A DNA stretch of 64,000 nucleotides from Escherichia phage iGC_PHA_EC001. The DNA lies in the sequence record OR437326.1. The stretch is one strand, 5' to 3'. Below are positions 13,452 through 39,029 of this stretch, piece by piece. The first letter of the stretch is position 1, and the number at the start of each line of letters is the position of its first letter. The notes beneath the pieces were generated by a model. That model saw only the letters and a list, made by a program, of their open reading frames with translations, searched no databases and was not told where the DNA came from. The position numbers and the translations under genes were made by a program.

Positions 13452-13454
13452 GAA

Positions 13455-13482
13455 AAGGAGCCATTTGGCTCCTTTCTTTTAT
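13455..13482. terminator. Bidirectional terminator between convergent gene blocks
   Basis: AAGGAGCCA-tt-TGGCTCCTT hairpin flanked by T-runs, between the + tail module and the - replication module. Confidence 0.55.
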
Positions 13483-13507: not shown

Positions 13508-14395
13508 TCAGAACGGAATATCATCGTCGAAGTCCATTGGAGGTTCTTCTTGATTACTTGGAGTTGGTTCTGGTTGTGGTTCAGGCTTCTTAACTTCTTT
13601 CTTCTCTTCTTTCTTAGGTTGTTCTACGGAACCACGAATGGCAGCAGCAACTTTATCAGACAGAGCCAGAACTTTACGAGCAGAGTCAATCAGATCTTCT
13701 ACAGATACAGTTTTAATGGTATGGTCTTTACAAGCATTGAGAATAGCGTGACCAACAGATGCCCCAAGATCATAATCATTAATATCAACGCCACGAGATT
13801 CAGCAATTTCAGATTTCAGCGTGACAGTTGCAGATTGAACAACCCCAGCGATATCGAAAGCATCGCCTTTAACACCATTACGAATCAGTTCCAGTGCACC
13901 ATTTACTGCGTGACCAGTTTCCAGACCTACAGTATCACGTTTTTTATAGGACTGCTTAGGAGCAGCATCGTTGGAACCTTTATTGCCAGAAGATTTGTTA
14001 GACTTCTGAACACCATCGGTAGACAATACTGTAATACGAGATTTTTTAGTATTGTAGTAAGTCTTACCGCCTTTATTATCAACGCGATCAATATCAATAC
14101 TTACTTCTACACCTTTTTCAATAGTGATCCAATTATCACCTTCTTTGACTTGCAGGTTTTCATAACCTTCTTTCAGTTCAATGTCACCAAGAGAAATCCA
14201 AACACCTTTCTCATCTGGTTTAGCACCTTTCTCTTTCAGAACAAGAGAAGCTCGGTGAGTTGAAACAATCGTTTTTCCTTCCCAATGAAAAGTTTTAGGT
14301 TCAGCGAATTTATCCAGTTTAACGTAGTCTACGATACCAGTTGCATAAGTTACGGTTTTGCCTTTACGATCAGTTTCAGTATTAATTACGGACAT
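13508..14395 (-). CDS. Single-stranded DNA-binding protein
   Basis: C-terminus PPMDFDDDIPF is identical in its tip to the acidic SSB tail (DFDDDIPF); Pro/Glu/Lys-rich linker before it. Confidence 0.6.
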   Translation of the reverse strand: MSVINTETDRKGKTVTYATGIVDYVKLDKFAEPKTFHWEGKTIVSTHRASLVLKEKGAKPDEKGVWISLGDIELKEGYENLQVKEGDNWITIEKGVEVSIDIDRVDNKGGKTYYNTKKSRITVLSTDGVQKSNKSSGNKGSNDAAPKQSYKKRDTVGLETGHAVNGALELIRNGVKGDAFDIAGVVQSATVTLKSEIAESRGVDINDYDLGASVGHAILNACKDHTIKTVSVEDLIDSARKVLALSDKVAAAIRGSVEQPKKEEKKEVKKPEPQPEPTPSNQEEPPMDFDDDIPF

Positions 14396-14411
14396 TATTA
14401 TCTCCTCTATA

Positions 14412-14804
14412 TTACATTAATTTTGCACAGAAAGAGCGGAGTCTTTCCATATCATCTTGCTCTAACAGGTATTTACCTTTACCTATTCCAACTCCAATTT
14501 CACCATTAGGAAAATGAACTATTTGCACTGGGAAACCTCCGAGTTTAATTGTGGCAGCTTTGCCTTCTTCGTCTATAACGTTTCGGATTGTATCTTGCAG
14601 TGAAATGAATTCTTTGTTTGTAACAGTGGTTTCAATTATTTCAGATGTTCCAACACGAGCGGTTAGCTTCTTGTCGCCACCTTGAATAACCAAAATTTGA
14701 AAATAAAAAGAGTTGTCAAGACCTACAACATTTTTCTCAACTAGTGTCAAACTGGTGTAGTTTCCATAAACAGTTTCAACAGCTATCTTAGAACGTTCAG
14801 TCAT
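14412..14804 (-). CDS. Hypothetical protein
   Basis: 130-aa ORF in same-strand block. Confidence 0.35.
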   Translation of the reverse strand: MTERSKIAVETVYGNYTSLTLVEKNVVGLDNSFYFQILVIQGGDKKLTARVGTSEIIETTVTNKEFISLQDTIRNVIDEEGKAATIKLGGFPVQIVHFPNGEIGVGIGKGKYLLEQDDMERLRSFCAKLM

Positions 14805-14849
14805 TGAATGCTATCCTATCATAAAATGTTTAATATTGTCAAGCTTTAA

Positions 14850-15443
14850 TTACCAAGGAATATCATCTTCTTCCAATCGGGTATCTACTTGAGGTGGACG
14901 TGGAACCTTAACCTCTTTCACAAAACGAAGATACGGGAAACGTGTAGCAATTTTAATAACGTGTTTGGCATCTTCTCTAACATCTTTGTGCAAGAAGCAG
15001 ATCCCTGTTTCCAAAGTTGTTTCAAAATCTTTAGAGTAATAACAATCCTTTCCATCAAATGCAGCCTGGCAGATGGACAGATCAAACTCATTTAGAAAGG
15101 TTGTCATTACGCTTGGTTCCATAATCATAAGGTTGCAAAGCTGACCATCACGTTCAAACTCAAAAACGTGTTTAAGACCAGTAACACCTTCATAATTGTC
15201 AGAAGCCTCTTTGTTTCCTAGTTTACGAATATTGGTTCCCATTAAAGCAGATGCAATTAATCCTTGTATTTGTTCTTCAGTCCGATGTGCAGGAAGGGAC
15301 GTATAGAAATCCAGATCACGTCCAGCAATATCAAGAATACGCCAATCACGAACAGCACCGCCAGCCAAGACAGAATTAGGATCAGCGATCTTTAATACGG
15401 TAAGAATTTCTTTGGCAATATTGATTTGTTTTGATTTAGTCAT
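14850..15443 (-). CDS. Nucleotidyltransferase-fold protein with SSB-tail-like C-terminus
   Basis: AGGAVRDWRILDIAGRDLDF fits the Pol-beta-type hG[GS]-x(9-13)-DxD motif; ends in EEDDIPW resembling the SSB tip. Confidence 0.35.
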   Translation of the reverse strand: MTKSKQINIAKEILTVLKIADPNSVLAGGAVRDWRILDIAGRDLDFYTSLPAHRTEEQIQGLIASALMGTNIRKLGNKEASDNYEGVTGLKHVFEFERDGQLCNLMIMEPSVMTTFLNEFDLSICQAAFDGKDCYYSKDFETTLETGICFLHKDVREDAKHVIKIATRFPYLRFVKEVKVPRPPQVDTRLEEDDIPW

Positions 15444-15831: not shown

Positions 15832-16044
15832 TTAATCTTCCTCCAGATCAATTTCATTATAACAATGTATACAGAAACCATCATTGTGCATATGTTGTTC
15901 ATAAGACATATCTTTACCACAAGACCAACAACGGATATCCCCATCGTCCCATTCACGTTCTTCTTCGCCTTCAAATTCATCTGGTAGGTAAGGCATACCA
16001 AAATAATCTAAATCGTAACTCATATCTTCTCCTACCGAGTCCAC
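15832..16044 (-). CDS. Small acidic zinc-ribbon protein
   Basis: CWSCG..x18..CIHC four-Cys arrangement; acidic termini. Confidence 0.3.
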   Translation of the reverse strand: MDSVGEDMSYDLDYFGMPYLPDEFEGEEEREWDDGDIRCWSCGKDMSYEQHMHNDGFCIHCYNEIDLEED

Positions 16045-16622
16045 TCCTTACGTTGTTCAATATGTTCAAGCATATCGTTATACAATGTTTTAAGATGTGG
16101 AACAACTCTTTGATCTTCTGTTTCAAAAAACTTTGTAAGCTGTTCTGCTTTAGCTTTCAACCAACAAAGATGTGCCTCAAGTTCAGTATCAAAACGTCCG
16201 AGCGTTATAATACGACCATCTACTTTTATATGGGCTTTATATTTCTTACGATCTTTTTCGTAATAGAAGCCTACCATAGTGCCATGAGATCTTTTACTTA
16301 CCCTGTAAGCTAAAAACTTGTTAAGATCCCCTGTTACTAAAAGGCAGGTGGCGGGAGAGTAAACTCTCCCTCCTATGATATCTTTATCGAGTTCTAAGTT
16401 TTCCCAGTTATCCCAAGTTTTCAACCAAGTATAGAAGTTGGAAAACAGTTTCCATTCTTCACAGACCGTCACTCCATGATAACAAGGATCACGTTCTTGT
16501 TGGCAAGGGGAGTAACATCTCCCCAACATAGCCATCCATTTCATATAAGCAGGATGAGTTCCATGTTTATCCTTCACCACAATATGTCCATCGAAAACAC
16601 CAACACCATATACTGTTCGCAT
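16032..16622 (-). CDS. AP2-like DNA-binding protein (homing-endonuclease-associated type)
   Basis: YMKWMAMLGRCYSP..YHGVTVCEEW and MVGFYYEKDRKKYKAHIKVDGRIITLGRFDTELEAHLCW resemble phage DNA-binding modules of AP2 type. Confidence 0.35.
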   Translation of the reverse strand: MRTVYGVGVFDGHIVVKDKHGTHPAYMKWMAMLGRCYSPCQQERDPCYHGVTVCEEWKLFSNFYTWLKTWDNWENLELDKDIIGGRVYSPATCLLVTGDLNKFLAYRVSKRSHGTMVGFYYEKDRKKYKAHIKVDGRIITLGRFDTELEAHLCWLKAKAEQLTKFFETEDQRVVPHLKTLYNDMLEHIEQRKEWTR

Positions 16623-16648: not shown

Positions 16649-19600
16649 TCAATGACATGTGGCCCAAGAGTTACCCACATCATATCCGGCAGTAAGCTGA
16701 ACGTTAAGATTGTAAAATTCTCCAGCCTTAGTAACAGCTAAAGCAGCAAGTTCTCCTGCCCGACTATAAGCTGTAAACCATCCACCTTTGGGAGATTCAT
16801 GAATGTTAGCCCAAATTTGTCCCGTTTCTTTTTCCTTATTATGCTTCCATTCTTCAACTTTAGCAAGGCATTCTTTATCAATTTTCTTTTGTTCTTCGGG
16901 ATCGTCTACTTTCTTCCAACCTAATGATTCAGGTGAAAACCATTTAAATTCTACAAGGTTACGAGAAACTTCAAGCTGGGCTTCATCGTGATATGCAATC
17001 ATTTGTTGCACGAAATCTTTATTCTTCCAGTCATCTTTAAAGAAGTCAACACTTAGTCCTTCTTCTTCGATCATGTCGTCATAAATAACCATTGCACGTT
17101 TAGCACAGATAACCCCACCACTTTGGAACAGAGAGTTAAGAATCGCGTGAGCAGAACGAGTAGGAACCTTACGACCGTCAATACCCAAAACATATTGTTT
17201 ACCAGTCTTAACCCAAAAATCGTTTAAACGTTCTTTAAGACGCGCCAATGGGAATGCAGCTTCCCAGAAAGCATCAAACACCAATTGACCTGTAAACTTA
17301 TCGCTACCAATTGTTTTAGCAACCTTGTCGGCTTGTGCACCATAGGTAATACCATACTTAACAGATTTAGCAGGACTACGTTCAAATTTACGTCCAATAG
17401 TTTCAGTAATACGTTTTGCCATCATTGTGTGAACATCATTAGGTTTCTCTAACAACAGAGCGTTACAATACTCGTGTGGCTCCGGCTCGTACCGCCAACA
17501 GTTTCCTGTGATGGTAATGCAGTCTTTCTGACGCATGACCCACGTACCAAGTTCTGTTTGTGGACACCAAACATCCTCTACACCCCACTCTTCAATAGTC
17601 AAACTTTGAACAGGAATGTGAGAGCGGTTAGTCAATGTTGCCACTTTTACTTTCTGCTCTTTTGTATTGAAAGCTACAGAGATATTGCCTCCATGCACCA
17701 GGTACGAGGCAGTTAAAGCTGCTTCAAAAAGTTCACCTGGGTTCTGCGCCCAACGCCAAACAGGTTTTTGTTTATGTTCGTGCCAGTAACCATCTGCAAT
17801 CAAGAAACCTTCCAAGAAAGCTACACGCTCGGCATGAGACATATTAACTACACGTTCTACCCACGGAACATCCCATTTACCTTGTTGAACAGAAGTTAAA
17901 CTATTTACCTGATCTTGTTCCATGTTAAATGGAGCATTACAAATAATGTTATCTCCTGTGCAAAGCTCGGCAGTTGTTCTGACTTTAGGCACATAAGTAT
18001 TCCCTTTACTACGGGTATTAACATACCAACGGTGATCTGCTGTTGCACGGTAAGTGTGTGATTTCCCTTTAATCTCAAACGTCTTACTATTTTTATAGAA
18101 GACCTTACCTTTTACTTTAGTCCATTCTTTCAGACCTGTTTCAGCATTGTACCCTAAAATCTCATCCCCTTCCTTCAGGTCGTGATATCCTACCCAACCT
18201 TTACGAGTCAAAGCTTGAGCATCCATCGGCACACAGTAGTGTGATTCAATTTTTGCTTCCAAAGAGTCGAAGTCGTAGCCGATCTGGAAGTATTTAGGAA
18301 CCTCTACACCAAACAAGTTACGCATCTCCCACCCAAACAAAGATGTGACACGAGGAATATTAGCTACAGATCTATGCTTCATACGAGAGGTTGCAGCATC
18401 ACATGTAGCGGCTGGGGTAGGAATACGCCCATCCGCCCTTACTGCGGCTAAGAAACCTTTATCGTATTCTTGATCTTCTTCATCTTCTTCCCAATCAGCA
18501 CCGCCACCTAAAATAGAGTTCCTACGATGCTTATACGTTAAGTATTCTACAATCTGTGTAGCATAAGGAAACTTCTCACTCAAAGCTTGCAGGTTAGGAC
18601 AAATTTCTTTTTCCTGACCTTTGGTAAAACACGGGTTAGTCAATACTTTAAGACCGCGACCTTTACCTTTTGCTATACGCTCTTGAATCTTCCTTTCCAG
18701 GGTTTCCGGTGTGCACTCCAGATGATCACAACGATCCTGACAAAAATTAGAAGATAGAGTTTGCTCAACGTAAGCTCGGATACCTTTCTGAAGTTCTTCC
18801 TCGCTCTTTTTAATCTTGGTGCCAGATTTAAGAGTCAAGTCTTTATCTTTATATTCAGACGGTACCCAACCTAATCCTACAAGCCAGTTTTTAATATGGG
18901 TTGTATCGTTTAATGTTGCAGGAATGTTAGGATCACATAGAGGTTCATCTGCTGCAACTGGCAGTTTCCACTCTTTCCCCAACATAACTAACCACCAATC
19001 GCCATCCCTCTCTTCCAAATGACCATCATGTTTCTTAGCAAAATTGATCATATGGTTAGTTGGCTCTAAGTTCTTTTTAATTTGCAACTTAGGTGGAATA
19101 AAAGCCTTAAGATAACCTTTTGTTGCTGGTTTAGGTGGCAAAATAGGCTCAACGAGTAAACGAAGACGCTCCATTTCTGCATCCAAAAAAGCAAGGTTCT
19201 CTTCTGCTTGTTTCATGTTAAAAGCAAACCCACGGTGTTCCTGGCGTGTAATAATGTCTGCTACACGTTGTTCAAGTTCAAATGGACCTTCCCATTTATC
19301 ATAATCACCCCATTCTTCCATAAGGTAATTATATACACTTGTATTGGCTTTGTTGTCATAGATACAGTAATAAAGCATATCCGCAGCAAAAGTCTTAAAT
19401 CGATCTTCTTCTGGAATCTCTTTACGGAAATCTATTTTTACATCACCACCTGCTTTTCGAGAAAGTGCTGCCAAACTATGTCCTGATTTGCCCTCAATCT
19501 TTCGATCTGGGTTTAACACTTTACTCAAAATCAAGGAGTCAATAAGTTTTACCTTATTTTTGCCCCACGTATTATATTTAACACTGTAATCTAATCCATA

Positions 19601-19981
19601 AAACAGTTTTGTAGCCAACCAGTCGTAGTTGATACCGTTGTGAGCCACAGCCATTTCAACCAGATATTCAGGCTTGTCTTTAAAATAACCTTCATGATTA
19701 ATAAAATCTGGGAAATCTTTTAGTTGAAAATGTGTGTAATCTTGCGCCACATACTCTTTAAGAACATATGTGTATTTACCATCTGACTCTTCATAAGGAC
19801 GCCCATCAAAGATGTATTTAGGGCCATCGTGGAAAGCTACTATTTCTCCTGTTTCATGGTTCTCTAAGACAATACAGTGCATTTGAAATGTGTCTTTGAG
19901 ACGATAAGGACTAGCTAAATAATCAATAGTGTCATTATTCAACAATCCGTTTGCTTCAATATCCCATGTAAACTTACTCAC
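16649..19981 (-). CDS. DNA polymerase, family A, with 3'-5' exonuclease domain and an intein insertion
   Basis: Exo I WDIEANGL, Exo II HNGINYDWL, Exo III YYCIYDN; motif A DFDSLEAKIESHY; motif B RSPAKSVKYGITYG; about 245 extra aa between motifs A and B. Confidence 0.85.
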   Translation of the reverse strand: MSKFTWDIEANGLLNNDTIDYLASPYRLKDTFQMHCIVLENHETGEIVAFHDGPKYIFDGRPYEESDGKYTYVLKEYVAQDYTHFQLKDFPDFINHEGYFKDKPEYLVEMAVAHNGINYDWLATKLFYGLDYSVKYNTWGKNKVKLIDSLILSKVLNPDRKIEGKSGHSLAALSRKAGGDVKIDFRKEIPEEDRFKTFAADMLYYCIYDNKANTSVYNYLMEEWGDYDKWEGPFELEQRVADIITRQEHRGFAFNMKQAEENLAFLDAEMERLRLLVEPILPPKPATKGYLKAFIPPKLQIKKNLEPTNHMINFAKKHDGHLEERDGDWWLVMLGKEWKLPVAADEPLCDPNIPATLNDTTHIKNWLVGLGWVPSEYKDKDLTLKSGTKIKKSEEELQKGIRAYVEQTLSSNFCQDRCDHLECTPETLERKIQERIAKGKGRGLKVLTNPCFTKGQEKEICPNLQALSEKFPYATQIVEYLTYKHRRNSILGGGADWEEDEEDQEYDKGFLAAVRADGRIPTPAATCDAATSRMKHRSVANIPRVTSLFGWEMRNLFGVEVPKYFQIGYDFDSLEAKIESHYCVPMDAQALTRKGWVGYHDLKEGDEILGYNAETGLKEWTKVKGKVFYKNSKTFEIKGKSHTYRATADHRWYVNTRSKGNTYVPKVRTTAELCTGDNIICNAPFNMEQDQVNSLTSVQQGKWDVPWVERVVNMSHAERVAFLEGFLIADGYWHEHKQKPVWRWAQNPGELFEAALTASYLVHGGNISVAFNTKEQKVKVATLTNRSHIPVQSLTIEEWGVEDVWCPQTELGTWVMRQKDCITITGNCWRYEPEPHEYCNALLLEKPNDVHTMMAKRITETIGRKFERSPAKSVKYGITYGAQADKVAKTIGSDKFTGQLVFDAFWEAAFPLARLKERLNDFWVKTGKQYVLGIDGRKVPTRSAHAILNSLFQSGGVICAKRAMVIYDDMIEEEGLSVDFFKDDWKNKDFVQQMIAYHDEAQLEVSRNLVEFKWFSPESLGWKKVDDPEEQKKIDKECLAKVEEWKHNKEKETGQIWANIHESPKGGWFTAYSRAGELAALAVTKAGEFYNLNVQLTAGYDVGNSWATCH
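17501..18235 (-). mobile_element. Intein with LAGLIDADG homing-endonuclease domain, inside the DNA polymerase
   Basis: Starts at Cys583 right after motif A (CVPMDAQAL, then GDEIL); block B TADHRW; AELCTGDNII; LAGLIDADG-like FLEGFLIADGYW; ends ITGN followed by Cys (aa 583-827). Confidence 0.55.
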
Positions 19982-20775
19982 TATTCCTCCTTTCTAATGT
20001 TCTCCAGAACCCACTGAAGTTCTTTTAAACTTAAACTTCTTACTCCCGCAGTTTTACTAGCTTCAGCTTTAAGTAACGGGTAAGCCTCAATGATACGCGT
20101 TTTAAGATCAGAAGTCAAGGCTTTTAAAAAGTAGGTAGATGCTTCAGATAAAGAATCTTCTTCTGATAACACTTTACCTGCACTTGCTCCCGCTCTCCTA
20201 ACGGCTATATCGTAGTCTTTACTGTTACCTAATACGAACAGTTGATTCTCTCCTAAAACAACGGGAGAACGCTTCTCGTTGCGTTTAATCCATATCTGGA
20301 ATACACAAGGAACATCCCAAGGTTCTCCATGAAGAATAAAAGATCCTTTTGGACATTCTTCTTCGTAAAGAAGATGCATGTGGGGATTTAGTTTGTGTGC
20401 AAAAAAGATTTTTTGAAATGTGCGAGGCAAGATAAAACAAATACCACCTTCGTTATCCAACATTTCAGCACAATGGTTAAAGAACTTAATGGCAAGACTA
20501 GCATTTTTTCCAAACGGAGGATTACCGACAAAAGCAGTTACACTACCAACAGACTCAACAGATTGAGCTAAAAAATCTGCCTCAATACAATCTTCAAACT
20601 TAGGGTCAATATCAAAAGAAGTTATGTTTTTAAAACAAGAAGAGAAAGCCCCTTCTCCCGCAGATGGTTCTACGTAGTTAGCTTCCTCTCCAAAAATTTC
20701 TTTGATCTTATCACATAAGAACCCCGCATAAGCGGGGTTAGTGTAATATTGATCAAGTGTGTTCAACTTGCTCAA
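19981..20775 (-). CDS. DNA N6-adenine methyltransferase
   Basis: DQYYTNP, SAM-binding VEPSAGEGAF, catalytic GNPPFG (NPPF). Confidence 0.7.
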   Translation of the reverse strand: MSKLNTLDQYYTNPAYAGFLCDKIKEIFGEEANYVEPSAGEGAFSSCFKNITSFDIDPKFEDCIEADFLAQSVESVGSVTAFVGNPPFGKNASLAIKFFNHCAEMLDNEGGICFILPRTFQKIFFAHKLNPHMHLLYEEECPKGSFILHGEPWDVPCVFQIWIKRNEKRSPVVLGENQLFVLGNSKDYDIAVRRAGASAGKVLSEEDSLSEASTYFLKALTSDLKTRIIEAYPLLKAEASKTAGVRSLSLKELQWVLENIRKEE

Positions 20776-20784
20776 TAGTCCTCC

Positions 20785-21216
20785 TTAGTTGTTAGCGAAC
20801 TCAATAGTGAGGTCAACTTTACCATCGTCAGAAATAACCATGTTTTTGGTATTTTTAAAGATGATATCTACTTTACCTTCACTTACACGACAGAATGCAA
20901 CACCATCTGCAACTTTATCGATATAATATTTGTAAGAAAGAATACCCACTTTACTACGACCAGCACCTTTTGTGAAAGAAGGGTTTACATCGAAACGGAA
21001 ACCTTTAGAAGAAACAACACGGTAAGAACGTCCAGTTGGAAGATGTTCAATAACAGAGACATTATTCTCAACAACTTTTACAGCAAACTCTTCAGGATGA
21101 TCCTCAACAATCACATGTGGGATGGCAAATGCCAACGCTTGTTTGTGTTTAATAACACCAGCACCCAGAGCACCAGCAGCTTTAACTTTTGCATTCAGAT
21201 CGATTGTCATACGCAT
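20785..21216 (-). CDS. Hypothetical protein
   Basis: 143-aa ORF between methyltransferase and primase-helicase. Confidence 0.35.
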   Translation of the reverse strand: MRMTIDLNAKVKAAGALGAGVIKHKQALAFAIPHVIVEDHPEEFAVKVVENNVSVIEHLPTGRSYRVVSSKGFRFDVNPSFTKGAGRSKVGILSYKYYIDKVADGVAFCRVSEGKVDIIFKNTKNMVISDDGKVDLTIEFANN

Positions 21217-21308
21217 TTTTACTTCTCCTCTTGTTTGGTTGATGAGACAAGTATAAGTCCCTTCCGTAAAGTTGTCAACAGGTATTTTTAATAAAAGGGC
21301 CGAAGCCC

Positions 21309-23087
21309 TTAATAGTTGCTATCCGTAGGCAAATTAGCAGGATTGTTGAAATACTGCTCTTTGTCATGCAGAGTTGCAGTTCTAATGTCATAGTAAAACT
21401 GCCCTGCCGGACCAGTTTCCGAGAACTCACGGTTTTTTAGGATAAAGCAATGAGTCGTATTGCGTTCTACAGGGTCTTCAGCGGCTTTATCTCGTTCCAA
21501 AGCTAAGGTAATACCAGCACCTTTAGCCAAGAAACTACTACCCATTGCATCGTCCTCTGTTAAGTGTTCATTGCCACCATTAGCCGATTTCTTAACGTGC
21601 GAGATGACGATAATAGTTATAGCATACTCTTTCATGATGCGCTTCAACCATGTTGCTAACTCTTCCTGGGCTTGAACATCCATACCAGAAAGCAAATCAG
21701 AATAAGGGTCGATAACAAGAATTGTTACTCCAAAATAGATGATCATCTCCAAAACTTTTTCTTTGATAGACTCCACATCTGCTCCACGATCATCACACAC
21801 ATAAAAACGTGGTGATCCATCTTCTCTTTCGTAAAAATCTAGGATTTTTTCTTTATTCTCTTCCAAGATTTGAAATTTCTCTTCCGGTGTTTTCCTGTGT
21901 AGAGGAATATGCAGGAACGAGGACAACAGGTTACGAGAATATTTCTTATAAGTTGCTTCCAAGGACAGAATACCTAGGGTATGTTCTGGGTGCGCAACAA
22001 TAATATGTTTGGTGATCTCGTTCACCATCAAAGTTTTACCGATACTGGTCTTTGCCAGGATGACTGTAATCTCTTCCTCTACTAAACCACCACCCAGCAT
22101 ATTTGCAGCAACACGCATAAAAGGAGGCAAGGTAATCATCTTGGATTCCAAGCATTCTAATGCAGCTTCATACAAGACATTAGAAGCATAAACACCTGCT
22201 GGGGTGTATAGACGAGCACTCCAAAAAGCTTTTACGAAATCTTTTGCACGACCTTCTTCCAGATACTGATTGGCATCCTTAAGATCCATCTGCATACGGT
22301 AGACTTTGTTACGAGGTAGCACCTTAACAATATTTTCAAATGCCTCATTACCTGCTTTGTCATTATCCATGCAAACAATAATCTTCTTAAATTTTTCAAA
22401 GAAAGGATATTGTGCCTGAACTTGTTTATACATACTGGTTTCACCAGTTGTGCCACTAACTACTGCTGGAAGTTCATATTTGTTGTCCAAGTTTTCAGAC
22501 AGCATTTGATAAGCTGCCAGAGCATCGTGTTCACCACCTGTAATTACCACAGTATGAGAACGGTCTGCAAAACGAATTTGTCCAAAAAGATCTACATCTT
22601 TACCTACTTGACCAATAGGTTTACTGAAATCTTTAGGATGAATACGACGCTTAAAACCAACCAATTCTTTACCGATGGTAGTTGGATATAAACAACTTTC
22701 TACTACCATCTGATCCCCTTCCTGACGGTATTCATAACGCACACCATAGAAAGATGAAACTTTTTCTTTAATGCCTCGATAACCACGTGGGTTGGTTGAT
22801 GTTTCTTGAACAATTTTACGATGAATCTGTTTATTAAATTCCGAACCCACAATCTCCTCCTCTTCTTCTAAAACTTCACCATTTTCTCGTAACCATTCTA
22901 CGCTAGGAATAGTGTATTCACACGCAAAGCACTTAGCACCTTTATGCTCTCCATTAGAATCTAATCCATAAACCATCAGGTTATTACGAGAGCGATCCTT
23001 GCCATTTTTCATGCAGCGCGGACAACCTGTATGCCCTTCCTTGCTAAGATCAACATCAAATCCATATTTAGTTATAATGTGCGACAC
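21309..23087 (-). CDS. Bifunctional DNA primase/helicase (T7 gp4-like)
   Basis: N-terminal Cys4 zinc ribbon (CPRC..CFAC); C-terminal helicase P-loop ILAKTSIGKT; 592 aa. Confidence 0.8.
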   Translation of the reverse strand: MSHIITKYGFDVDLSKEGHTGCPRCMKNGKDRSRNNLMVYGLDSNGEHKGAKCFACEYTIPSVEWLRENGEVLEEEEEIVGSEFNKQIHRKIVQETSTNPRGYRGIKEKVSSFYGVRYEYRQEGDQMVVESCLYPTTIGKELVGFKRRIHPKDFSKPIGQVGKDVDLFGQIRFADRSHTVVITGGEHDALAAYQMLSENLDNKYELPAVVSGTTGETSMYKQVQAQYPFFEKFKKIIVCMDNDKAGNEAFENIVKVLPRNKVYRMQMDLKDANQYLEEGRAKDFVKAFWSARLYTPAGVYASNVLYEAALECLESKMITLPPFMRVAANMLGGGLVEEEITVILAKTSIGKTLMVNEITKHIIVAHPEHTLGILSLEATYKKYSRNLLSSFLHIPLHRKTPEEKFQILEENKEKILDFYEREDGSPRFYVCDDRGADVESIKEKVLEMIIYFGVTILVIDPYSDLLSGMDVQAQEELATWLKRIMKEYAITIIVISHVKKSANGGNEHLTEDDAMGSSFLAKGAGITLALERDKAAEDPVERNTTHCFILKNREFSETGPAGQFYYDIRTATLHDKEQYFNNPANLPTDSNY

Positions 23088-23099
23088 TTTGTTCTCCTG

Positions 23100-23378
23100 T
23101 TAAAATGGTTCGTTAGTCTCCATCATATATTCTGCTTCTAGTTCTTCCATATGCTTTCTAAATTGGAAAGCAATTTCTGCTACAGTTACATTTAAATCTT
23201 TTTCAAAAACTTCTGTAGAGCCTTCATAAAAACGAATACCGTCAATTAAAAGCCCTCCGTGGTAATCCCAATCACTTTCACGAGAAAGCGGGTTAGGCTC
23301 TTCATAATAGTAATCCACCTCCACAACTAAGGCTTTCCCGTTACGAGTGGTGTATTCAAAATCAAAAGTGTTAATCAT
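23100..23378 (-). CDS. Hypothetical protein
   Basis: 92-aa ORF abutting neighbours. Confidence 0.3.
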   Translation of the reverse strand: MINTFDFEYTTRNGKALVVEVDYYYEEPNPLSRESDWDYHGGLLIDGIRFYEGSTEVFEKDLNVTVAEIAFQFRKHMEELEAEYMMETNEPF

Positions 23379-38338: not shown

Positions 38339-38558
38339 TACTTATCTCCTCACTTAAAATGGAAGTCTTTGAAGTTCATCTCCTCCGATATCAAGTAATT
38401 TAGCAACATCTCGATCAGAAAGCAACTCTTTTCTTTGTAAAATATCCACAAGGGTTGCAAGAATGTCCTTAACGTCCCGATCACTGTTCTTCAAAAGTTC
38501 TCCTGCCGTCCCTACTCTATCTCCTACAGCAAAATATGTAACCATGAAACCTCCTAAG

Positions 38559-39029
38559 TTAATCTGATTGCCAACCACTTGCCGTTTTGGTCCATAATCT
38601 TTGATTATCTGACCCTCTGAAAGGTTTTGTAGTTGGATTGTTTATTTCATACTTTCCGTCTACAATAATGTCAACAAGATTTTTAATATACAAAGGCACT
38701 TCCTCAAAAGTATATCCTGTATACACCATTATATCTTTGCTTGACCCATAAACGTCTCTAACCTTTTCTATAAGGTTTTTAACATTGTAAATATTCTGCG
38801 GATCTAATGGCTCTCCTCCTAAAATTGTTAAACCTTTTACAAACGGTCTTGACAAATCTTTTAAAACTTGCTCTACATTTTCGTGAGTGAACGGTTTCCC
38901 ATAAGAATAAGACCAGGCTTTTTGGTTAAAACAGCCACGACAACCGTGGCTACAACCACTAACCCAGAGGGAGCACCTAACTCCCTCACCATTAATAAGA
39001 TCTACAGGTTCATATCCTGCAAAATTCAA
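38559..39029 (-). CDS. nrdG: Anaerobic ribonucleotide reductase activating protein
   Basis: Radical-SAM-type Cys cluster SGCSHGCRGCFN; 156 aa directly downstream of nrdD with a 4-nt overlap. Confidence 0.75.
   Translation of the reverse strand: MNFAGYEPVDLINGEGVRCSLWVSGCSHGCRGCFNQKAWSYSYGKPFTHENVEQVLKDLSRPFVKGLTILGGEPLDPQNIYNVKNLIEKVRDVYGSSKDIMVYTGYTFEEVPLYIKNLVDIIVDGKYEINNPTTKPFRGSDNQRLWTKTASGWQSD

What the first reader, a model, noticed from the sequence alone, without database searches (positions are those of the whole stretch)
13508..15443. SSB with canonical DFDDDIPF tail beside a nucleotidyltransferase-fold protein ending in an SSB-tip-like EEDDIPW
The SSB acidic tip is the docking site for many host replication and repair proteins. 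The phage SSB carries an identical tip, and the gene two positions downstream, a Pol-beta-type nucleotidyltransferase-fold protein, ends in a near-copy of it. A second protein with this tip could be recruited to SSB-binding partners or compete with host SSB for them, a plausible takeover or anti-defence mechanism.
Basis: inference. Interest (0 to 1): 0.5.

Follow-up and report, generated by a model that had tools for sequence, protein, structure and literature searches.

The report
Phage nucleotidyltransferase carrying an SSB-like tip
In this E. coli phage, a small nucleotide-transferring enzyme next to the phage's single-strand DNA-binding protein (SSB) ends in a conserved near-copy of the peptide SSB uses to recruit partner proteins. 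The same kind of tip turns up on other phage replication enzymes, so it looks like a reusable docking tag.

Summary
The window is a Phapecoctavirus-like E. coli myovirus.

- **SSB-like protein:** ORF 13508-14395(-) encodes 295 aa ending PPMDFDDDIPF.
- **Not chance:** a second such ending is expected about 0.001 times per genome. DDIPW is kept in relatives down to 34% identity, while the disordered linker before it varies.
- **Not universal:** most of about 1000 family representatives lack it. Syntenic sister lineages carry other acidic/aromatic tails.
- **Wider pattern:** genes ending D-D-I-P-W-TAA reach the 120-locus limit in IMG/VR, against 18 and 11 for permuted controls. They include canonical SSBs and an SF2 helicase. 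A primase and a 3'-5' exonuclease ending ...EIPF sit next to DDIPW-ended proteins.

The best reading is a portable docking peptide that ties the enzyme to SSB-tip-binding sites in a T7-like replication module. The binding partner, the enzyme's substrate and any anti-defence role are untested.

The parts
14850..15443 (-). 197-aa stand-alone class-II (CCA-adding/poly(A) polymerase type) nucleotidyltransferase head domain with a C-terminal tail
15345..15362 (-). Motif GGAVRD (aa 28-33), nucleotide-binding loop of class-II NTases
   Evidence: Translation. G28 and G29 are invariant; R32, D33 and W34 are at least 90% conserved in 140 family members. This segment aligns to the GGAVRD of CCA-adding enzymes.
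15309..15317 (-). DLD (aa 43-45), the two metal-binding carboxylates
   Evidence: Translation. D43 and D45 are invariant in 140 of 140 members.
14853..14903 (-). C-terminal linker plus tip, PRPPQVDTRLEEDDIPW; the last 7 residues (14853-14873) are the SSB-tip-like EEDDIPW
   Evidence: Translation. pLDDT falls to 77 and then 61 over the last 17 residues, with no secondary structure. The tip is conserved and the linker variable in homologues.
14813..14842 (-). Promoter-like site (TTGACA-18-TAGGAT, with TG) between the NTase gene and the 130-aa gene
   Evidence: A consensus match only.
14412..14804 (-). 130-aa protein of unknown function (phrog_16560), conserved directly upstream of the SSB-like gene
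   Evidence: Syntenic in phi92, FKP3, L003 and L010. Kept next to the SSB-like gene where the NTase is elsewhere (L013).
13508..14395 (-). 295-aa SSB-like protein: OB-like beta domain (14021-14395), disordered linker (13931-14020), four-helix domain (13637-13930), disordered acidic tail (13511-13636)
13511..13534 (-). SSB tip DFDDDIPF with a free C-terminus
   Evidence: 103 of 120 homologue clusters end in ...PF; P294 and F295 are invariant in the alignment. The tail aligns to the enterobacterial SSB tail.
13453..13476 (.). Bidirectional intrinsic-terminator-like hairpin between the SSB-like gene and the convergent tail gene
   Evidence: sequence.
16649..23087 (-). Context: T7-like replication genes upstream in the same orientation. 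Family-A DNA polymerase (16649-19981), methyltransferase-like ORF, primase-helicase (21309-23087)
   Evidence: Annotation of the 98%-identical EF1-1. Pfam DNA_pol_A and Toprim_2+DnaB_C on the syntenic genes of L003.

Best explanation
The 197-aa protein is probably a catalytically competent stand-alone class-II nucleotidyltransferase head domain that belongs to the phage's T7-like replication module (primase-helicase, family-A polymerase, NTase, 130-aa protein, SSB-like protein). Its roughly 17-residue disordered C-terminus ends in a short linear motif, (E/D)DDIPW-COOH, of the same kind as the SSB tip DFDDDIPF-COOH. I infer that this tip is a docking peptide. It would insert its terminal aromatic residue and free carboxylate into the kind of pocket that recognises the SSB tip, flanked by acidic residues that meet a basic rim. 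That would tether the enzyme to a replication or repair protein, either a phage protein such as the polymerase or a host SSB-interacting protein, at sites where SSB-coated ssDNA is processed. This is how T7 gp4 and gp2.5 both dock on gp5 through similar acidic, Phe-ended tails. Shown here: the fold, the motifs, the low-confidence (disordered) tail, selection on the tip, synteny, and recurrence of the tip on other phage replication proteins. Inferred: binding to a tip pocket, the identity of the partner, and the enzyme's substrate. The substrate is probably a nucleic-acid 3' end or a nucleotide, not a full tRNA.
For: Fold and active site. The tail is low-confidence in the model, is not constrained by an overlapping gene, and is conserved as DDIPW (one DSFPW) in 10 homologues at 59-98% identity while the linker changes in length and sequence. 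It is also kept as ...PDDIPW in a syntenic 34%-identical homologue and as ...SNDIPW in a distant member next to a DNA ligase (E 3.7e-19 to the family profile). Chance expectation is about 0.001 per genome, and only the SSB-like protein and the NTase carry such a tip in the genome. Replication-module synteny. 114 of 118 matches end in-frame ORFs of at least 60 aa, in 26 unrelated clusters. These include canonical PF00436 SSBs ending DDDIPW, DUF736- and DUF669-type proteins (the DUF736-type also matches SSB PHROGs) and an SF2 helicase. Adjacent pairs occur: an SSB (..DDDIPW) with a 3'-5' exonuclease (..LDEIPF), and a Pam3_Gp34-like protein (..DDIPW) with a primase (..TEEEIPF). T7 precedent: a gp4-tail peptide (DTDF) bound to gp5 serves as the template for placing the gp2.5 tail (PMC12339929).
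Against: No binding was tested or modelled; no multimer prediction was available. The terminal residue is always W in the NTase clade and always F in the SSB-like family, so the two tips may not share a partner. Most NTase family members have no tip. The syntenic sister lineages have different tails: phi92 ...NNEEFKI, FKP3 ...DDAWDDDKI, L155/L156 ...MDEI and ...TDEI, L159-163 ...PDVFNF. Exact SSB-tip likeness is therefore not required for the enzyme's core role. The third catalytic carboxylate candidate, E95, is E or D in only 70% of members.
Confidence: 0.5

Rival explanations
1. Decoy or competitor. The free tip lets the NTase occupy the SSB-tip pockets of host proteins such as ExoI, RecQ, PriA or Pol III chi, or of SSB-sensing defence proteins. 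It would block them, or nucleotidylate them or their substrates, to the phage's benefit.
For: The phage SSB tail matches the host's, so host pockets are a plausible target. A related phage SSB-like protein with an FDDDIPF tip is the trigger of the DRT10 defence system, which is modulated by ExoI/SbcB (bioRxiv 10.64898/2026.04.29.721553). Several family members carry precomputed faint-to-weak hits to Pfam PF26128 'Gad2', an anti-Gabija protein predicted to be an NTase. In L011 the tip-bearing NTase (..SNDIPW) sits near a flap-type exonuclease whose tail is different (..DDFDDF). There the tip does not copy that neighbouring protein's tail.
Against: The Gad2 link was not reproduced by hmmscan at E up to 10 or by tblastn. 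Gad2 is 400 aa and its mechanism is unknown. The gene sits inside the replication module, not among early host-takeover genes. The same or a similar tip on a helicase, a primase and an exonuclease in other phages points to assembly rather than inhibition. The tip is absent in close sister lineages that infect the same hosts.
Confidence: 0.2
2. The acidic tail acts within the protein or on SSB itself. It mimics nucleic acid and folds back onto the NTase's own substrate groove (autoinhibition), or it binds the OB fold of the SSB-like protein, as the tails of E. coli SSB, T4 gp32 and T7 gp2.5 do with their own DNA-binding clefts (my own knowledge of those systems).
For: All syntenic lineages keep an acidic tail with an aromatic residue even when the IPW ending is lost. 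That fits a charge-based role. In PMC12339929 the AlphaFold2 model of gp2.5 has its C-terminal tail bound in the positive groove.
Against: A charge-only role does not explain strict conservation of the I-P-W-COOH ending across 34-98% identity, or the enrichment of exactly this ordered peptide over permuted versions. The AF2 monomer model gives the tail low confidence rather than a docked pose.
Confidence: 0.12
3. The enzyme is a phage tRNA 3'-end repair enzyme (CCA-adding) or poly(A) polymerase, as GenBank annotations suggest, and its tail has nothing to do with SSB.
For: GenBank relatives are annotated 'putative tRNA nucleotidyl transferase / poly(A) polymerase'. The closest structures are CCA-adding enzymes and PAP. 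The phage also encodes an RNA ligase and a phosphoesterase elsewhere.
Against: Only the head domain is present: 197 aa against roughly 340-520 aa for the enzymes matched. There is no RRD or EDxxR motif. Pfam and NCBIfam scores are far below their cut-offs (13.9 vs 23 bits; 12.6 vs 438.8 bits). The gene lies in the DNA replication module, far from the RNA ligase genes, and relatives neighbour a DNA ligase or a 5'-3' exonuclease.
Confidence: 0.1
4. Coincidence: the ending merely resembles an SSB tip and has no tip-related function.
For: Only five to seven residues are involved. Most family members lack the tip. Sister lineages replaced it.
Against: Chance expectation is about 0.001 per genome. 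The tip is conserved against a variable linker down to 34% identity. The ordered peptide is at least 7- to 11-fold enriched at viral gene ends over permuted controls.
Confidence: 0.08

Closest known systems
E. coli SSB C-terminal tip (SSB-Ct, ...MDFDDDIPF) and its hub of SSB-interacting proteins
   Same: The phage SSB-like protein carries the same last residues on a disordered acidic, proline-rich linker. The NTase tip keeps the acidic run, the I-P and a terminal aromatic residue with a free carboxylate.
   Different: The NTase is not an ssDNA-binding protein, and its last residue is Trp, not Phe. The SSB-like protein has no Pfam SSB domain and carries an extra four-helix domain. Binding to any SSB-interacting protein is untested.
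Phage T7 gp2.5 (SSB) and gp4 (primase-helicase): acidic, Phe-ended C-terminal tails that dock on gp5 DNA polymerase
   Same: The SSB and a second replication protein of one phage carry similar acidic, aromatic-ended C-terminal tails. The replication module here has the T7-like layout of a Toprim-DnaB-type primase-helicase and a family-A polymerase. Precedent cited from PMC12339929 and my own knowledge of the Richardson-laboratory work.
   Different: The second protein is a nucleotidyltransferase, not the helicase. The motif is of the bacterial DDIP[FW] type rather than ...DTDF or ...DEDF. This phage's own primase-helicase ends ...PTDSNY. No docking site on the polymerase has been shown.
Class-II nucleotidyltransferases (CCA-adding enzymes, A-adding enzymes, E. 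coli poly(A) polymerase I; Pfam PF01743) and the stand-alone head-domain protein PDB 2la3
   Same: Pol-beta-like head-domain fold, the GGxVRD loop and DxD carboxylates. Like 2la3 it is a protein of about 190 aa consisting of the head alone.
   Different: No neck, body or tail domains. No RRD or EDxxR motifs. Below the Pfam gathering score. It forms its own family of about 1000 representative clusters, many of them from phage contigs, with a GGAPRDW signature.
Bas52_0087, the phage SSB-like trigger of the DRT10 reverse-transcriptase defence (bioRxiv 10.64898/2026.04.29.721553)
   Same: A phage-encoded protein with SSB-like architecture, a disordered C-terminus and an FDDDIPF tip, discussed there as interfacing with ExoI/SbcB. 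Homologues of the window's protein at about 35% identity and about 400 aa occur in rV5-like phages.
   Different: Bas52_0087 is described with two OB folds. I did not verify that it belongs to the same family. No tip-bearing NTase is mentioned in that work.
Gad2 (Gabija anti-defence 2; Pfam PF26128)
   Same: A phage protein predicted to be a nucleotidyltransferase. Family members here carry precomputed faint or weak PF26128 hits.
   Different: Gad2 is 400 aa, from Bacillus phages, with unknown mechanism. The link was not reproducible with the tools here.

Membership tests
Class-II CCA-adding enzyme / poly(A) polymerase (Pfam PF01743 PolyA_pol) | Pol-beta-like nucleotidyltransferase head-domain fold | tested here: met
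Class-II CCA-adding enzyme / poly(A) polymerase (Pfam PF01743 PolyA_pol) | Motif A: GGxVRD loop followed by DxD metal ligands | tested here: met
   GGAVRD at aa 28-33 and DLD at aa 43-45. Invariant across 140 family members. Aligned to the same motif of CCA-adding enzymes.
Class-II CCA-adding enzyme / poly(A) polymerase (Pfam PF01743 PolyA_pol) | Motif B (RRD, ribose recognition) and motif D (EDxxR, base selection); motif definitions from my own knowledge of the family | tested here: not met
   No RRD and no ED..R anywhere in the 197 aa.
Class-II CCA-adding enzyme / poly(A) polymerase (Pfam PF01743 PolyA_pol) | Neck, body and tail domains that hold the tRNA or RNA | tested here: not met
   197 aa in all. 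The fold ends near residue 176 and the rest is disordered. The enzymes matched are about 340-520 aa.
Class-II CCA-adding enzyme / poly(A) polymerase (Pfam PF01743 PolyA_pol) | Score above the curated family threshold | tested here: not met
   13.9 bits against a 23-bit cut-off. NCBIfam CCA equivalog 12.6 against 438.8. 19 of 140 family members give a sub-0.01 hit.
Bacterial-type SSB (Pfam PF00436), for the 295-aa protein | SSB-family OB-fold domain recognisable by sequence | tested here: not met
   No PF00436 hit at E up to 1. NCBIfam and the SSB PHROGs match only the C-terminal 40-48 residues.
Bacterial-type SSB (Pfam PF00436), for the 295-aa protein | OB fold at the structural level | tested here: inconclusive
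Bacterial-type SSB (Pfam PF00436), for the 295-aa protein | Disordered linker ending in the acidic tip D-D-D-I-P-F-COOH | tested here: met
   Conserved in 103 of 120 homologue clusters.
Bacterial-type SSB (Pfam PF00436), for the 295-aa protein | Binds ssDNA | not testable with these tools
   Needs a gel-shift or fluorescence titration.
SSB-Ct-type docking motif, for the NTase tail | Located at the extreme C-terminus of a disordered segment, with a free carboxylate | tested here: met
   A stop codon directly follows W197. pLDDT is 77 and then 61 over the last 17 residues, with no secondary structure.
SSB-Ct-type docking motif, for the NTase tail | Sequence: acidic run, then hydrophobic residue, Pro, terminal Phe | tested here: inconclusive
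   E-E-D-D-I-P-W: all positions match except W in place of F. Canonical PF00436 SSBs ending DDDIPW exist in viral contigs, so W is a natural variant of the tip.
SSB-Ct-type docking motif, for the NTase tail | Evolutionary conservation of the tip relative to the linker | tested here: met
SSB-Ct-type docking motif, for the NTase tail | Binds the hydrophobic pocket and basic rim of an SSB-interacting protein | not testable with these tools
   No complex prediction or binding assay was available.
T7-type shared acidic tails (gp2.5 / gp4 to gp5) | T7-like replisome genes: fused primase-helicase and family-A polymerase | tested here: met
   Toprim_2+DnaB_C and DNA_pol_A on the syntenic genes. Annotation.
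T7-type shared acidic tails (gp2.5 / gp4 to gp5) | The SSB and another replication protein carry similar acidic, aromatic-ended tails | tested here: met
   SSB-like ...DFDDDIPF and NTase ...EEDDIPW.
T7-type shared acidic tails (gp2.5 / gp4 to gp5) | Both tails bind one site on the polymerase | not testable with these tools
   Needs a binding assay or complex modelling.
Gad2 (Pfam PF26128) | Significant match to the family profile | tested here: inconclusive
   Precomputed hits are 'faint' (P0009, P0136, P0279) or 'weak' (P0238). No hit in hmmscan at E up to 10. The local Pfam copy may lack the model.
Gad2 (Pfam PF26128) | Inhibits Gabija defence | not testable with these tools
   Needs phage infection assays.

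The most novel reading that the evidence does not exclude
SSB-tip-like C-terminal peptides (DDIP[FW]-COOH) are a widespread, portable docking code in phages. Unrelated enzymes (this NTase, an SF2 helicase, a primase, a 3'-5' exonuclease and several proteins of unknown function) each acquired one, which plugs them into the pockets that normally read the host SSB tip. In this phage the tip would deliver a Gad2-like nucleotidyltransferase to host SSB-interacting repair or defence proteins, so that it modifies or blocks them at SSB-coated phage DNA.
Probability: 0.15. Interest if true: 0.75.

Novelty: new variant of a known kind. Interest (0 to 1): 0.5.

Why it matters
The SSB tip is the central recruitment signal of bacterial genome maintenance, and phage SSB-like proteins are emerging as triggers of defence systems. 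Three things follow from a nucleotidyltransferase, and other phage enzymes, carrying their own copy of the tip.

- It gives a first functional handle on a large uncharacterised family of small phage NTases, about 1000 representative clusters.
- It extends the T7 'shared acidic tail' principle to the bacterial DDIPF-type motif and to new enzyme classes.
- It offers a simple sequence rule for finding phage proteins that dock at SSB-tip pockets, for example as tools or as inhibitors of SSB-partner interactions.

If the tip turns out only to tether an accessory enzyme to the phage replisome, it is a modest but useful addition to phage replication biology.

Tried and rejected
2. **Gad2 link.** It rests only on precomputed faint or weak Pfam hits. 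It was not reproduced by hmmscan or by tblastn with the best bridging member, and I found no newer literature on its mechanism. I keep it as a lead, not a result.
3. **tRNA-repair reading.** I rate it low for lack of motifs and domains and for genomic position.
4. **Co-variation between the two tips.** There is no simple rule. Phapecoctavirus nieznany has a masked SSB tip and a tipped NTase. phi92 has a masked SSB tip and an untipped NTase. FKP3 has a free SSB tip and an untipped NTase.
5. **Recent copying of the NTase tip from the SSB gene.** The two share only the 11 nucleotides GATGATATTCC, as expected from the shared codons.
6. **Literature.** 'DDIPW' occurs in none of the 8 million texts searched. 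Searches for SSB-Ct mimicry by phage proteins found no precedent for a non-SSB enzyme with the tip.
7. **Other tip-bearing proteins in this genome.** None were found. There are only weak look-alikes: a 92-aa protein ending ...NEPF, the helicase ending ...DSNY and a 95-aa ORF ending ...LQRLPF.
Full report
**What is in the window.** The window is a Phapecoctavirus-like E. coli myovirus (Stephanstirmvirinae). The 3.7 kb around the finding is 98% identical to Escherichia phage EF1-1 and 94-99% identical to about 60 other Phapecoctavirus records. Three minus-strand ORFs fill the reported interval:
- a 295-aa protein (13508-14395) ending ...PSNQEEPPMDFDDDIPF;
- a 130-aa protein (14412-14804);
- a 197-aa protein (14850-15443) ending ...TRLEEDDIPW.

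In transcription order the 197-aa gene comes first. Upstream in the same orientation lie three small ORFs, an HNH endonuclease, a family-A DNA polymerase, a methyltransferase-like gene and a Toprim/DnaB-type primase-helicase. This is the phage's T7-like replication module. A hairpin terminator follows the 295-aa gene.

**Is the observation more than chance?** Among 1017 stop-to-stop ORFs in the window, only these two end in an acidic run plus IP[FW]. The same holds across 3419 ORFs when the rest of the EF1-1 genome is added. From the window's amino-acid composition, [DE][DE]IP[FWY]-COOH is expected about 0.001 times per 260-gene genome. No overlapping gene constrains the NTase tail codons.

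**The 197-aa protein.**
- Pfam gives only a sub-threshold PolyA_pol head-domain hit over residues 26-65. PHROGs place it in 'nucleotidyltransferase' families.
- An exhaustive profile search finds a family of 1034 representative clusters, mostly 170-240 aa. G28, G29, D43 and D45 are invariant; R32, D33, W34, Y84 and K164 are nearly invariant.
- AlphaFold2 on a 140-sequence alignment gives pLDDT 92. The fold ends near residue 176, and the last 17 residues have low confidence.
- Sequence similarity to those enzymes is confined to motif A. There is no RRD or EDxxR motif, and no neck, body or tail domain.
- Similar small NTases are common in phages, including T7/phiKMV-like ones.

The protein is not a bona fide CCA-adding enzyme.

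**The tail of the 197-aa protein.**
- Ten homologues at 59-98% identity all end in DDIPW (one in DSFPW), while the 10-15 residues before it vary in sequence and length.
- A 34%-identical homologue in the same gene order ends ...PDDIPW.
- A distant member (E 3.7e-19 to the family profile) that directly follows an ATP-dependent DNA ligase gene ends ...SNDIPW.
- Most family members have no such tail.
- Within the syntenic group, sister lineages carry other acidic/aromatic endings: phi92 ...NNEEFKI, FKP3 ...DDAWDDDKI, L155/L156 ...MDEI and ...TDEI, L159-163 ...PDVFNF.

The tip is thus selected in one lineage. It is a fast-evolving accessory peptide, not part of the catalytic core.

**The 295-aa 'SSB'.**
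- It has no Pfam SSB domain. Profile matches to SSBs cover only its last 40-48 residues.
- AlphaFold2 (pLDDT 78) predicts an N-terminal beta domain, a disordered linker, a four-helix domain and a disordered acidic tail.
- Of 120 homologue clusters, 103 end in ...PF, mostly DFDDDIPF.
- The tail's DNA is 80% identical to the 3' end of E. coli ssb and 92-95% identical to plasmid ssb genes.
- Relatives in rV5-like phages share the OB domain.
- A recent preprint reports that an SSB-like protein of the BASEL phage Bas52, with an FDDDIPF tip, triggers the DRT10 defence system, with ExoI/SbcB as modulator.

Calling it 'SSB-like with a canonical tip' is fair. 'SSB' remains an inference.

**The tip is a recurrent module.**
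- I scanned IMG/VR for the codons D-D-I-P-W-TAA. The scan stopped at its 120-locus limit. Two permuted controls gave 18 and 11 loci.
- Of 118 matches, 114 end in-frame ORFs of at least 60 aa, falling into 26 unrelated clusters.
- The clusters include canonical PF00436 SSBs ending DDDIPW, so Trp is a natural variant of the SSB tip. They also include DUF736- and DUF669-type proteins (the DUF736-type also matches SSB PHROGs), Pam3_Gp34-like and DUF6511 proteins, several unknown families, and a 570-600-aa SF2 helicase ending ...TTEDDIPW.
- In 5 of 120 loci, two adjacent genes both carry tips. One pair is an SSB (..DDDIPW) beside a 3'-5' exonuclease (..LDEIPF). The other is a Pam3_Gp34-like protein (..DDIPW) beside a primase (..TEEEIPF).

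An SSB paired with a neighbouring replication enzyme that has a similar tip is therefore not unique to this phage.

**Interpretation.** The best-supported reading is that the NTase tip is a docking peptide of the SSB-Ct type. It would tether an active small NTase to a protein that reads such tips, within or next to the phage replisome. The known parallel is T7, where the acidic, Phe-ended tails of gp4 and gp2.5 dock on gp5 (plus my own knowledge). The shown steps are the fold, the motifs, the low-confidence tail, conservation, synteny and recurrence. The inferred steps are binding, partner identity and substrate.

Supporting it are the host-identical SSB tip, the DRT10/SbcB story and the faint Gad2 hints. 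It has no direct support, and the Gad2 link could not be reproduced. An autoinhibitory acidic tail, a tRNA-repair role and coincidence are less likely, for the reasons given under the rival explanations.

**Novelty and score.** The two genes are already annotated in GenBank as SSB and nucleotidyltransferase. SSB tips on phage SSB-like proteins are known. I found no description of the SSB-like tip on the NTase, nor of its recurrence on other phage enzymes; 'DDIPW' occurs in no text of the library. I rate it a new variant of a known kind, namely shared C-terminal docking tails. Interest is moderate at 0.5.

Noticed in passing
window 13508-13534; L009 2449-3381 (phage nieznany), L006 5026-5973 (phi92), L013 5001-5930, L014 5001-6161: In 17 of 120 homologue clusters the SSB-like protein continues past ...DDIPF with about 15 conserved residues (APIGLQYGRNFLHCF and variants), which would bury the tip. 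This includes a cluster of 110 sequences that is 99% identical to the window's protein. In 3 of 3 such loci checked, a phrog_2340 HNH/EndoVII-type endonuclease gene directly follows or overlaps the 3' end. That suggests a homing endonuclease inserted at the SSB stop codon. phi92 has the extension without that gene. The window and EF1-1 have the free tip.
   Followed up: partly
window 16649-19981 (-): The family-A DNA polymerase is 1110 aa here, against 865 aa in the syntenic locus L003 and 829 aa in L014. The extra roughly 245 residues (from about ...SHYCVPMDAQALTRKGW...) look like an intein or another inserted element. phi92 and L010 also have the long form.
   Followed up: no
window 16032-16622 (-): An HNH endonuclease (phrog_953) lies between the polymerase and the small ORFs. 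Most close relatives match only about 83% of this region, in 2-3 pieces, consistent with a mobile homing endonuclease gene that is present in some and absent in others.
   Followed up: partly
window 14412-14804 (-): The 130-aa protein (phrog_16560, no Pfam match) sits directly upstream of the SSB-like gene in every syntenic relative examined. This holds even where the NTase is encoded elsewhere (L013). It may be a partner of the SSB-like protein.
   Followed up: partly
window 23100-23378 (-) and 21309-23087 (-): Two more replication-module proteins end in weakly acidic, aromatic C-termini. A 92-aa protein (phrog_4240) ends ...EYMMETNEPF, and the primase-helicase ends ...LPTDSNY, which recalls the T7 gp4 tail.
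   Followed up: no
window 38354-38641 (-): A 95-aa ORF (phrog_17780, unknown function) ends ...DIGGDELQRLPF. It is a loose match to the tip pattern and probably unrelated.
   Followed up: no
L011 413-1486 and 5655-7608: In an unrelated viral contig, a tip-bearing NTase homologue (305 aa...SNDIPW) overlaps the end of an ATP-dependent DNA ligase gene. A flap-type exonuclease (phrog_107) nearby ends in a T7-like acidic tail...DALDDFDDF.
   Followed up: partly
L003, L010, L011, L012 (NTase homologues P0009, P0136, P0238, P0279): Precomputed Pfam annotation gives faint or weak hits to PF26128 'Gad2' (Gabija anti-defence 2, a predicted NTase) for several members of this family. The local hmmscan did not reproduce them.
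   Followed up: partly
window 13511-13585 (-): The last roughly 40-50 nt of the SSB-like gene are 80% identical to the 3' end of chromosomal E. coli ssb and 92-95% identical to ssb genes on plasmids of about 95 kb. The rest of the gene has no SSB sequence similarity. This suggests the tail was captured from, or exchanged with, a host or plasmid gene.
   Followed up: partly
window 1-64000: GC skew changes sign near 13-14 kb and near 50 kb. The first change coincides with the convergent junction between the plus-strand tail genes and the minus-strand replication genes. Strand orientation around 50 kb was not examined.
   Followed up: no
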